A stretch of DNA of 64,000 nucleotides from Carcharhinus longimanus (taxonomy: Eukaryota), in NCBI GenBank assembly GCA_030264375.1, contig JASCQW010000032.1, forward strand, positions 40,453,032 to 40,517,031, in the 5' to 3' direction. The notes under the pieces were generated by a model. That model did not search any database, was not told the DNA's origin, and worked only from the letters and a program-made list of their open reading frames with translations. How positions within the stretch are numbered: position 1 is the first letter of the stretch; every line of letters begins with the position of its first letter. The position numbers and the translations under genes are program-made. Positions 12,410-52,740 of this stretch are shown here, one piece after another.

Positions 12410-12965
12410 TTGGGTCAAGTTGCTGTTGTTTCTCCTCCTTGTGCTCACTGTTGCTTGCCGTTTCGGAGCTGCTGCAGCCAATCTCCTTGGGAACCTTTTC
12501 CCTACACTCTGGGTAGGAGCCGCACGTAAATTCTGGCAGGCTGAGGGTTTGCAGCTCAAAGGAAGAACACTCAGTCCTCTTGGCTGATAAAGTTTCTGGC
12601 TTGATCCCGTAATGTCGGCCGTTTGGATGGAATCCGGGGAAAGGGACTGAGCTGGAAAGTGGTTCTAACCAGGAGCGCACGTATCTGCTGTCCCCAGCCG
12701 CAAGATGCGACTGATGCATGTACGGGTGATAGATTCCTGCAACGGCGGCAGAGGGCTGAGGATGGACGGGAGACCAGGGATTGGAAAATGCGGCTGACTT
12801 GGGGGTAAAACTGCAGGAAGAGAAATCTGAACTGTCTGCTACACCTGGCGGCCTTGAAGCTGTGCTGTGTGATCCTTGAGCATATCTGGCCGCGTATAAG
12901 TCCTCTGTCTCCTGACCTATCAAAGAATCAACATAATAGTTCTGTATAGTGCCACCGGTCGACAT
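12410..12965 (-). CDS. hoxd9: HoxD9 exon 1
   Basis: ATG 12965 gives MSTGGTIQNYYVDSLIG..., with Hox9 motifs FSSCSF, RYVRSWLEP and RHYGIKPE. Ends QQLDP with donor A|GTAAGT at 12409. An in-frame upstream ATG lies at 12986. Confidence 0.95.
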
Positions 12966-13065
12966 TTTAGGTTCTCTCGCTTTCATAGAAAAGGTTACAC
13001 TGGAACGTGTATCTGATACCTTCACTCAGAACAATCATAGTATTTTGCCGACTACAGTTGCAGCT

Positions 13066-17742: not shown

Positions 17743-18014
17743 TCATGAGAAAGTGAGGTTAGTGGTCAGTTCTCGAATTCGGGTTTCTCTGTTCATTTTC
17801 TTCAGCTTCATCCTACGATTTTGAAACCAGATCTTGACTTGCCTGTCGGTCAGATTCACGCTCTTGCTTATCTCTAGACGGCGCTCACGAGTCAGATACA
17901 TATTAAATAAAAACTCTTTCTCCAATTCCAGTGTTTGATATTTTGTATAAGGACACCTCTTCTTTCTTCCGCTCTTTGCTGTGAGCCAGTTGCTTACCGG
18001 GGTTTTCAGCTCTT
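17743..18014 (-). CDS. hoxd10: HoxD10 exon 2 (homeobox)
   Basis: Acceptor CTTCTGATAG|AAG. Encodes (E)[89 protein letters not shown]. Joined CDS is 1011 nt (336 aa). Confidence 0.96.
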
Positions 18015-19189: not shown

Positions 19190-19928
19190 CTTTAGTCTCA
19201 TTGTCCGATTGTTCCGAGCTAGATTCGGCTTCCTCAGCGGTTGCACTGACCTCCACTAACCTCGGTTTTGGCTCTGGAGTTTCCACATATATTCCTTTAA
19301 TGGGCTCCTGCGCGCTTGGCTTCTCGTTTATTTTCCTCTCCATTGAAGGCTGGCTTGATACCTGGAGTTTGCTGATAAGCCCTAGGCTTGACTGCGGCAT
19401 TATATTGGCGCTAATTTCCCCAGCGTGATTGTAGTCCAGGCTTTTCTCCAATGGATAAGCCTGACAGAGTCTGAAATATCCCGGGATGGGAATCTCAGGA
19501 CTTTCAATGGAACAGCTTTCCGAGACCAACCTGGGATAGGCGGGAATTGCGGTAGGAGTGAGTTTTGCCCGTTTATCAGAATTATACATGCAGCAAGTGT
19601 TTTCTTCCTTTATGCTAGCAGGAAAGGAGCACGTGGGCATCTGTGGAGTAACAGGTTGTTCAATTCGGCATGGTCTCGAAGGGTCAGCCCAGCCATCCAC
19701 CTGAGATAAATACGGATGAACGCTGATGCTCATATTTTGATGGCTAACCTCTCCTCGTTTAGTCATGGTCGGGAGCAGTCCACAGGTCTGCATTCCGTAA
19801 GTTCCCATATCCGTGCTCGATGGCATGTACATGGAGCTGGTTGAATAGAACCCGTCACCCCTACAAGCACTAATCAGGGAATCTACTAAAAACGAGTTAG
19901 TGGCCGGAGAGCTGCTGGGACAGGACAT
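19190..19928 (-). CDS. hoxd10: HoxD10 exon 1
   Basis: [23 protein letters not shown]..., [10 protein letters not shown] and [13 protein letters not shown] are Hox10 motifs. Donor G|GTGAGC at 19189. Confidence 0.96.
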
Positions 19929-20039
19929 TTTGGAGAGTAATTTGAAGAAGGCAGATGATGTCCTTTGTAAGCTGACATCTCTAACAAAACATTCCCTGTG
20001 TAATTGTGGATGCCTCTGTACAAACGCATGACTACTGAG

Positions 20040-20092
20040 CCAATGGAATTTGAAAATGGCCTTGAAGCACTACCTCCCCGCACATCACATGA
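20040..20092 (-). promoter_or_regulatory. HoxD10 proximal promoter motifs
   Basis: CCAAT 20040-20044, YY1-like AAAATGGC 20053-20060 overlapping TCAAGGCCA (minus, 20057-20065), and E-box TCACATGA 20085-20092. Confidence 0.55.
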
Positions 20093-29632: not shown

Positions 29633-29770
29633 ATTTTGCTTTCGGAGTTGCGAGGCCGAATTATCAGGATTGATGATGTTAAACATGCTCCATCTATTCT
29701 ACCCTAAAAGCGTATGAACAGGGCCGGCGGAGAAAAAAATTGGAAACGCAAGTTGACGTGCAATTCATCT

Positions 29771-52650: not shown

Positions 52651-52740
52651 TCACAGTCCGGGATAACCTGACTTTACCGATTGTTGTACGCGGAGAAGCT
52701 TTTTCTCTTTTTGCCTCTGATTCTGAAACCATATTTTGAC
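52651..52740 (-). CDS. hoxd14: HoxD14 exon 3 (homeodomain helix 3 and C-terminus)
   Basis: Acceptor GTCTTTCAG|GTC. Encodes VKIWFQNQRQKEKKLLRVQQSVKSGYPGL*; WFQNQR is the vertebrate Hox14 signature. Too short for the ORF track. Confidence 0.93.
   Translation of the reverse strand, partial: VKIWFQNQRQKEKKLLRVQQSVKSGYPGL

What the first reader, a model, noticed from the sequence alone, without database searches (positions are those of the whole stretch)
19886..19978. HoxD10 overlapping uORF is a frameshifted homologue of the HOXA10 N-terminal extension
Seen: ATG 19978 reads [17 protein letters not shown] and lies 50 nt upstream of the main ATG, so it is out of frame. It continues [13 protein letters not shown] across the start codon (30 aa). 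Known (from memory): HOXA10 begins MSARKGYLLPSPNYPTT-MSC..., the same peptide but in frame at 51 nt. Inference: one ancestral upstream AUG yields a long isoform in HoxA10 but, through a 1-nt indel, an inhibitory overlapping uORF or micropeptide in HoxD10. I recall a similar out-of-frame AUG in human HOXD10, which needs checking. Conservation could also be purely at the DNA/promoter level.
Basis: partly seen in the sequence, partly recalled or inferred. Interest (0 to 1): 0.7.

Follow-up and report, generated by a model that had tools for sequence, protein, structure and literature searches.

The report
Frame-shifted upstream start in shark HoxD10
A shark limb- and spine-patterning gene (HoxD10) keeps an extra start codon that, in its sister gene HoxA10, adds 17 amino acids to the protein but here sits one base out of frame; it most likely just damps protein output, a kind of control already described for Hox genes.

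Summary
ATG 19978 opens a 30-codon ORF 50 nt upstream of the HoxD10 start and overlaps it. The gene is 321/336 identical to catshark HoxD10. The first 17 residues match the HoxA10 extension at 10/17 and rank first of 2,351 ATG-started 17-mers in the window. A guinea-pig model shows the same 50-nt register, so this is not an assembly error.

A functional micropeptide is unlikely. Only about 7 codons are conserved, their wobble bases look fixed too, and the block runs on into the promoter. In other HoxD10 models the AUG lies 48-65 nt upstream, in frame in 7 and out of frame in 5 of 12.

Ivanov et al. 2022 already list a conserved, translated Hoxd10 uORF. It may be this one or a 3-codon uORF at 19992; their table was unreadable. 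I found no paper stating the A10/D10 frame switch. Which frame is ancestral, and the transcription start, remain unknown.

Verdict: most likely a leaky, repressive upstream start in an ancestral Hox10 leader; a modest new variant of a known kind.

The parts
19886..19978 (-). Overlapping out-of-frame uORF, 30 codons plus stop; start context G at -3, T at +4
19928..19978 (-). First 17 codons of the uORF, homologous to the in-frame HoxA10 N-terminal extension; only about the first 7 codons (19978-19958) are conserved among HoxD10 orthologues
19981..19992 (-). Second, 3-codon uORF (Met-Phe-Cys-stop) ending 2 nt before ATG 19978; inferred also in guinea pig and gecko, apparently absent in three teleost read-throughs
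   Evidence: shown; inferred from peptide read-throughs, not from DNA
20040..20044 (-). Inverted CCAAT box (ATTGG) 116 nt upstream of the main ATG
   Evidence: a promoter role is inferred from general knowledge of NF-Y sites
19958..20064 (-). Conserved proximal promoter and leader block that contains both upstream ATGs; its upstream end lies at nearly the same distance from the main ATG in guinea-pig and teleost read-throughs
   Evidence: exact peptide matches at shark nt -137 to -135, -90, -74 and -54
19190..19928 (-). HoxD10 coding exon 1; main ATG 19928 has A at -3 and T at +4; next in-frame ATGs at 19832, 19826 and 19808
17743..18014 (-). HoxD10 coding exon 2 with the homeodomain
19886..20029 (-). 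Longer 47-codon form of the same uORF frame from ATG 20029; relevant only for transcripts starting further upstream
   Evidence: no database hit

Best explanation
HoxA10 and HoxD10 inherited the same proximal promoter and short 5' leader from before the Hox clusters duplicated. It includes an AUG about 50 nt ahead of the main start, in middling context and probably close to the cap. A fraction of scanning ribosomes start there and the rest leak through. In HoxA10 the spacing is 51 nt, so those ribosomes make a 17-residue longer protein. In this shark's HoxD10 (and in guinea pig) it is 50 nt, so they read a 30-codon out-of-frame ORF that ends past the main AUG and yields no full-length HoxD10. 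The element is thus a modest translational damper, sensitive to start-codon stringency (eIF1/eIF5), and the peptide is a by-product. SHOWN: the sequence, the homology, the 50-nt register in shark and guinea pig, the variable spacing in other models. FROM PRINT: a translated, conserved uORF in the mouse Hoxd10 leader, identity not verified. INFERRED: transcription start upstream of 19978 in shark, use of this AUG, repression and stringency sensitivity.
For: Homology far above chance. 83 of 103 named HoxA10 rows keep the extension and 81 keep exactly 17 residues. The upstream Met motif recurs in shark, ray, gecko, guinea pig and teleost models. The context G(-3)/T(+4) meets the 'suboptimal uAUG' definition of PMC8892498. 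That paper lists Hoxd10 and Hoxc10 among 13 Hox mRNAs with conserved uORFs downstream of the mouse CAGE peak and says translation of each was confirmed in aggregate ribosome profiling. Its reporters for Hoxa1, a9 and a11 respond to eIF1 versus eIF5. An ORF that ends 43 nt inside the CDS precludes forward re-initiation at the main AUG (established scanning model). 74 of 83 named HoxD10 models start at the main Met, consistent with, not proof of, an out-of-frame AUG in most species.
Against: There are no shark CAGE or Ribo-seq data, so use of this AUG is unshown. No HOXD10 ORF is listed among the 7,264 GENCODE Ribo-seq ORFs (supplement of PMC10032668). The published Hoxd10 uORF ('mammals to tetrapods') may be the 3-codon one at 19992, whose inferred distribution (shark, gecko, guinea pig, not teleosts) fits that wording better than the 50-nt AUG. 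The frame is not strictly kept: the AUG is in frame in 4 of 83 named HoxD10 models and 3 unnamed teleost-like rows, so repression is dispensable in some lineages or those models carry errors. Wobble bases look fixed and conservation extends about 85 nt upstream of the AUG, which DNA-level selection alone explains. AUGs within about 30-40 nt of the cap are leaked past (PMC13219423 passages), so the effect may be small.
Confidence: 0.55

Rival explanations
1. The ATG is a passenger. The block is conserved as DNA (core promoter, initiator or transcription-factor sites around the transcription start), the AUG lies at or too near the cap to be used much, and its reading frame is close to neutral in HoxD10. 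The HoxA10 'extension' may then be partly an annotation of the first in-frame ATG.
For: The third bases of uORF codons 5 and 6 are unchanged in shark, guinea pig and 3 teleost read-throughs, and codon 2 is restricted to A or T. The conserved block starts about 136 nt upstream of the main ATG, next to an inverted CCAAT box. The frame varies among HoxD10 models. Hyperconserved Hox leaders often overlap promoters (PMC9456764 passages). No HOXD10 ORF in the Ribo-seq catalogue. 20 of 103 HoxA10 models start at the second Met.
Against: HoxA10 holds the spacing at 17 codons in 81 of 83 extended rows, from coelacanth and bichir to birds and teleosts; counting is biased towards in-frame cases. PMC8892498 reports ribosome footprints on each scored uORF, Hoxd10 included. 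DNA-level constraint and translational effect are not exclusive. The wobble test rests on 3 informative sites in about 3 independent lineages.
Confidence: 0.3
2. A two-uORF switch. Ribosomes that translate the 3-codon uORF at 19992 terminate 2 nt before ATG 19978, cannot restart there, and re-initiate at the main AUG 53 nt further on. The small uORF would shield HoxD10 from the overlapping one, and output would depend on ternary-complex supply (GCN4/ATF4-like logic with the opposite sign).
For: The arrangement is in the sequence. The same small uORF is implied by guinea-pig and gecko read-throughs. Re-initiation falls with uORF length (PMC8892498).
Against: Three teleost read-throughs seem to lack the small uORF. 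It may lie only a few nt from the cap. The 2-nt spacing is unlike ATF4 or GCN4 (recalled). No functional data.
Confidence: 0.08
3. The 30-residue product is a functional micropeptide that keeps the activity of the HoxA10 extension.
For: The first 7 residues are identical in shark and some teleost in-frame models; 10 of 17 match HoxA10.
Against: Beyond residue 7 the length (16-22 codons) and frame vary, and the Narcine, Gekko and Sebastes models change frame inside the stretch. Residues 18-30 are just the alternative frame of the CDS. Wobble sites are as fixed as the others. 0 hits among 1.84 billion representatives for the 47-aa form (low power for so short a query). No Pfam family. Not in the Ribo-seq catalogue.
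Confidence: 0.05
4. Assembly error: one base is missing and shark HoxD10 really has an in-frame 17-residue extension.
For: A run of four A at the junction. The electric ray Narcine model is in frame, though at 48 nt.
Against: The guinea-pig read-through is colinear over the same 17 main-frame codons and again at -90. 6 of 7 other named chondrichthyan HoxD10 models start at the main Met.
Confidence: 0.02

Closest known systems
Conserved inhibitory Hox uORFs with suboptimal uAUG (Ivanov et al. 2022, PMC8892498): Hoxa1, a9, a11, b9, c4, c8, c9, a6, c10, d10, d11, c13, d1
   Same: AUG-started ORF in a short Hox leader, suboptimal context by their definition, deep conservation; Hoxd10 is itself on their list.
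   Different: They give Hoxd10 as 'mammals to tetrapods'; here the AUG is in a shark and in teleost models. The ORF overlaps the CDS. The main text never mentions Hoxa10 (0 occurrences). Which of two upstream AUGs they scored could not be seen (SI Appendix too large). Only a1, a9 and a11 were tested in reporters.
HoxA10 17-residue N-terminal extension (alternative in-frame upstream start)
   Same: Homologous sequence and position: 10 of 17 residues, 51 versus 50 nt.
   Different: In frame and nearly fixed in length in HoxA10 of bony vertebrates; out of frame or variable in HoxD10. The only chondrichthyan HoxA10 row found (P0101) lacks the extension, so the ancestral frame is open.
Overlapping uORFs (oORF/uoORF class; ATF4 uORF2 as the textbook case, recalled)
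   Same: Out-of-frame ORF that starts in the leader and stops inside the CDS, preceded by a 3-codon uORF.
   Different: The two uORFs are 2 nt apart rather than tens of nt; no evidence of stress induction; no HOXD10 entry in the GENCODE Ribo-seq catalogue.
Hyperconserved Hox transcript leaders that are promoters (Akirtava et al. 2022, PMC9456764)
   Same: Deep conservation running through a CAAT-box region into the leader.
   Different: That work concerns Hoxa leaders and false IRESes; Hoxd10 is not mentioned (0 occurrences).

Membership tests
Conserved inhibitory Hox uORF (Ivanov 2022) | AUG-initiated ORF upstream of the main AUG, not in frame with it | tested here: met
   ATG 19978, 50 nt upstream, stop at 19886
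Conserved inhibitory Hox uORF (Ivanov 2022) | Suboptimal uAUG context (no purine at -3 and/or no G at +4) | tested here: met
   G at -3, T at +4; definition
Conserved inhibitory Hox uORF (Ivanov 2022) | Lies downstream of the major CAGE-defined transcription start | not testable with these tools
   No shark transcript data; SI Tables S1 and S2 unreadable
Conserved inhibitory Hox uORF (Ivanov 2022) | Present in at least 90% of placental mammals | tested here: inconclusive
   Only one mammalian leader visible, by read-through (guinea pig); no vertebrate DNA collection available
Conserved inhibitory Hox uORF (Ivanov 2022) | Translated in ribosome profiling | tested here: inconclusive
   The paper says each scored uORF was confirmed, but its identity is unknown; absent from the GENCODE 7,264 list
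Conserved inhibitory Hox uORF (Ivanov 2022) | Represses the main ORF and responds to eIF1/eIF5 | not testable with these tools
   Needs reporters; shown in print only for a1, a9 and a11
HoxA10-type N-terminal extension | Sequence homology to the 17-residue extension | tested here: met
   10 of 17 to consensus, rank 1 of 2,351, 0 of 20,000 shuffles
HoxA10-type N-terminal extension | In frame with the main ORF | tested here: not met
   50-nt spacing in the window and in guinea pig
Conserved-peptide uORF / functional micropeptide | Amino-acid conservation over the ORF with synonymous excess and kept frame and length | tested here: not met
   About 7 residues conserved, wobble sites fixed, length 16-22 codons, internal frame changes; small indirect sample, no true dN/dS
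Programmed -1 frameshift site | X XXY YYZ slippery heptamer plus downstream stable structure | tested here: not met
   The junction heptamer has a non-matching first base; 19880-20000 folds no better than shuffles, z = +1.24, 184 of 200 as good

The most novel reading that the evidence does not exclude
Posterior Hox leaders carry ancestral cap-proximal AUGs whose reading frame has toggled repeatedly, between paralogues and between lineages, from in-frame extension to repressive uORF by 1-2 nt indels, acting as an evolutionary dial on Hox protein dose and N-terminus. Group 10 shows it directly: in frame in HoxA10; out of frame in shark and guinea-pig HoxD10; in frame in electric ray, gecko and several teleost HoxD10 models. 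The in-frame upstream ATGs of HoxD9 (12986) and HoxD11 (29686) in this window have the same context classes that are reported for the Hoxa9 and Hoxa11 uORF starts, and may be the mirror cases.
Probability: 0.2. Interest if true: 0.65.

Novelty: new variant of a known kind. Interest (0 to 1): 0.36.

Why it matters
If the AUG is used, this is a compact natural experiment on how uORFs and N-terminal extensions interconvert. One start codon, kept since the Hox cluster duplications, gives a longer protein in one paralogue and a repressor of translation in another. It would extend the published Hoxd10 uORF from tetrapods to jawed vertebrates, and a single-base edit could test whether Hox10 dose or isoform depends on leader frame. 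It also warns annotators that in-frame 'extended' HoxD10 models and second-Met HoxA10 models may reflect leader indels or pipeline choices. If the AUG is unused, it is ordinary paralogous promoter conservation.

Tried and rejected
Stand-alone relatives of the uORF peptide: 0 hits at E 0.001 among 1.84 billion representatives with the 47-aa form, and no Pfam family for the 30-aa or 47-aa forms. Both have weak power for so short a query.

RNA structure: the leader folds no better than shuffles (z = +1.24). Rfam gave 0 matches at gathering score in the whole window. A structured element or a frameshift stimulator was rejected. A programmed -1 frameshift that would make an extended HoxD10 was rejected because the heptamer is imperfect and there is no structure.

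Ancestral frame: the search for chondrichthyan HoxA10 gave a single cluster (P0101, 25 members, representative without extension; 120 of 245 hits listed). Its members could not be listed. Since 20 of 103 HoxA10 models start at the second Met anyway, no polarity is claimed. HoxC10, HoxB10 and lamprey Hox10 leaders were not obtained. The only hint is a catalogue HOXC10 uORF peptide holding the same Asp-Val-Ser triplet as the HoxD10 leader's main-frame reading, which fits but does not prove a shared AUG.

Literature: SI Appendix of PMC8892498 too large to read; its four spreadsheets hold only gene-list rows for the Hox10 genes; Dataset S4 is cut and irrelevant. No supplements were available for PMC2746220. 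The supplement search of PMC13275300 was not made. Searches without a paper on the frame switch: 'Hoxd10'+'uORF' 7 papers; 'Hoxd10'+'Hoxa10'+'upstream ATG' 0; five-term uORF/extension/paralog search 5 papers, 4 listed; 'HOXA10'+'uORF' 14 papers, 12 listed; 15 of 91 listed; 12 of 193 listed. Except where a paper is cited as read, these were judged from listings only.

Rows dropped before counts: 7 of 44 unnamed rows were left out of the HoxD10 leader survey as tetrapod-like or ambiguous; 17 unnamed rows were left out of the HoxA10 count. In one search the HoxD9 start was entered 3 nt off (the ATG is at 12965), and the HoxD9, D11 and D13 main starts were my choice from the ORF list, guided by recalled N-termini. 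Bacterial promoter scans and the microbial DNA collections were not used, being irrelevant to a vertebrate locus.

Full report
Locus. The window is a HoxD cluster on the minus strand, with homeoboxes of HoxD8 to D13, a HoxD14-like gene and Evx2 on the plus strand. The gene names other than HoxD10 are my reading of the translations and gene order, not search results. The gene at issue is HoxD10: coding exons 19928-19190 and 18014-17743 give 336 aa, 321 identical to Scyliorhinus canicula HoxD10. The six best named hits are sharks and rays, the seventh a chimaera. The source is therefore a shark close to the catshark.

Observation. ATG 19978 reads [30 protein letters not shown], 50 nt upstream of the main ATG 19928, with its stop ending 43 nt inside the CDS. 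Its context has G at -3 and T at +4; the main ATG has A at -3 and T at +4. Two further upstream ATGs lie within 130 nt. 19992 opens a 3-codon ORF whose stop ends 2 nt before 19978, and 20029 is in the uORF frame. An inverted CCAAT box lies at 20044-20040. An upstream ATG alone is unremarkable: 1.26 are expected per 70 nt and 6 of 8 genes in the window have one within 130 nt.

Homology to HoxA10. Of 103 named HoxA10 rows from two searches, 81 carry a 17-residue extension, one has 16, one has 18 and 20 start at the second Met (17 unnamed rows excluded; one search listed 120 of 245 hits). The first 17 uORF residues match the consensus at 10 positions and the best single row at 12. They rank first among 2,351 ATG-started 17-mers of the window (z = 7.0), no shuffle of 20,000 reaches the score, and the other two frames score below zero. 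Residues 18-30 are only the alternative frame of the CDS. The homology is real.

Is the 50-nt spacing real? No vertebrate DNA collection was available, so I used gene models that read through the leader. The guinea-pig model P0015 matches the shark main-frame reading over the same 17 codons, and again at -90 and -136. The out-of-frame register is thus shared by a shark and a rodent and is not an assembly error. Four unnamed teleost-like rows give the same phase at 53, 53, 53 and 65 nt.

The spacing is not fixed. The AUG is in frame in Narcine (48 nt), Gekko (51), Solea (51), Sebastes (60) and three unnamed teleost-like rows (51, 57, 57). That is 7 in frame and 5 out of frame among 12 informative models. 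Caveats: the Solea model is labelled LOW QUALITY and the Gekko model UNVERIFIED_CONTAM; homopolymer errors are possible; the sample is biased towards in-frame cases; and the third phase cannot be seen by this method. Among 83 named HoxD10 models, 74 start at the main Met, 4 at the upstream AUG, 3 further downstream and 2 are other.

Peptide or DNA? Among HoxD10 orthologues only about the first seven codons are kept. After that the length runs from 16 to 22 codons, and the Narcine, Gekko and Sebastes models switch frame inside the stretch. The main-frame reading of those first codons is conserved as well. This implies that the third bases of uORF codons 5 and 6 are unchanged in shark, guinea pig and three teleost rows, and that codon 2 is limited to A or T; codon 4 is forced by the method. 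Conservation also runs about 85 nt upstream of the AUG to the CCAAT region. This is a small, indirect sample, but it points to constraint on nucleotides. The peptide has no relatives among 1.84 billion representatives, no Pfam family and no entry among the 7,264 GENCODE Ribo-seq ORFs (a 3-codon ORF would be below that catalogue's length limit, as I recall it). The leader has no unusual structure and no Rfam match.

What is in print. PMC8892498 (read: parts 1-3 of 9 of the text; the methods section on uORFs; passages; four spreadsheets searched; SI Appendix not readable) lists 13 Hox mRNAs with conserved uORFs. Hoxd10 and Hoxc10 are among those conserved 'from mammals to tetrapods'. All were defined downstream of mouse somite CAGE peaks and confirmed in aggregate ribosome profiling. 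Reporters for Hoxa1, a9 and a11 showed 1.2- to 2.5-fold effects and eIF1/eIF5 sensitivity. Hoxa10 does not occur in the main text. I cannot tell whether their Hoxd10 uORF is the overlapping one or the 3-codon one; the latter is implied in guinea pig and gecko but apparently absent from teleost read-throughs, which fits their wording. PMC9456764 (passages) shows that hyperconserved Hoxa leaders are often promoter sequence. PMC13219423 (passages) shows that AUGs near the cap are leaked past. PMC10032668 was seen only through a supplement search; PMC2746220, PMC13275300 and PMC11317171 only as listings. Searches turned up no paper stating the HoxA10/HoxD10 frame relation, but the library lacks most subscription papers and the unread SI may hold it.

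Mechanism. The most likely reading (0.55) is a leaky upstream start in an ancestral Hox10 promoter-leader block. It diverts some ribosomes into a longer isoform in HoxA10 and into a dead-end overlapping ORF in HoxD10, giving a modest, stringency-sensitive cut in protein. Sequence, homology and register are shown; transcription start, use of the AUG and repression are inferred. The main rival (0.30) is that the AUG is a passenger in a DNA-level element. A two-uORF shielding switch (0.08), a functional micropeptide (0.05) and assembly error (0.02) are less likely. Which frame is ancestral is unresolved: the one chondrichthyan HoxA10 cluster found lacks the extension, its members could not be listed, and annotation often skips the upstream Met.

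Verdict. The element works like the published Hox uORFs and may be one of them. It is homologous to, but not a member of, the HoxA10 extension class, since it fails the frame test. The new part is the paralogue frame switch, its depth (shark to mammal) and its apparent lability. Interest 0.36. The bolder reading, repeated frame toggling of upstream AUGs across posterior Hox genes, has a probability of about 0.2 and would merit about 0.65.

Noticed in passing
window 19981-19992 (-): 3-codon uORF ending 2 nt before the overlapping uORF's ATG; implied in guinea-pig and gecko read-throughs, apparently absent in teleost ones. It may be the Hoxd10 uORF scored in PMC8892498.
   Followed up: partly
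window 12986-12965 (-), HoxD9: In-frame upstream ATG 21 nt before the likely main ATG, with neither a purine at -3 nor G at +4, the context class reported for the 7-codon Hoxa9 uORF. Homology untested. A 23-codon uORF starts at 13038.
   Followed up: no
window 29693-29632 (-), HoxD11: In-frame upstream ATG 29686 (54 nt; A at -3, no G at +4, as reported for the Hoxa11 uAUG) preceded by a 4-codon uORF at 29693, an arrangement much like that of HoxD10. Homology untested.
   Followed up: no
window 44675-44591 (-), HoxD13: In-frame upstream ATG 84 nt before the presumed main ATG, 35 nt downstream of a TATA-like motif.
   Followed up: no
window 5350 (-), HoxD8: The main ATG is in poor context (C at -3, A at +4), agreeing with the conserved poor-context Hoxd8 start reported in PMC8892498.
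   Followed up: no
window 19832-19808 (-): Three in-frame ATGs lie 53-78 nt after the uORF stop; the Met-Tyr-Met motif is present in 71 of 83 named HoxD10 models and 3 models start there. Re-initiation could give an N-truncated HoxD10 lacking the conserved N-terminal motif; speculative.
   Followed up: partly
proteins P0008, P0123, P0062, P0088: HoxD10 models of electric ray, gecko, sole and rockfish have the upstream AUG in frame (48-60 nt). Real leader indels or assembly and annotation errors; two of the four carry quality flags.
   Followed up: partly
protein P0101: The only chondrichthyan HoxA10 cluster found (25 members) is represented without the extension.
   Followed up: partly
window 52674-54344 (-): HoxD14-like gene between HoxD13 and Evx2, as expected for a cartilaginous fish; name from my reading, not searched.
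   Followed up: no
window 1-64000: No Rfam family reaches its gathering score in the window, so no miR-196-like hairpin between HoxD10 and HoxD9 at that threshold. Eight N runs occur, none near the finding; one (60976-61117) interrupts the last Evx2 exon.
   Followed up: yes
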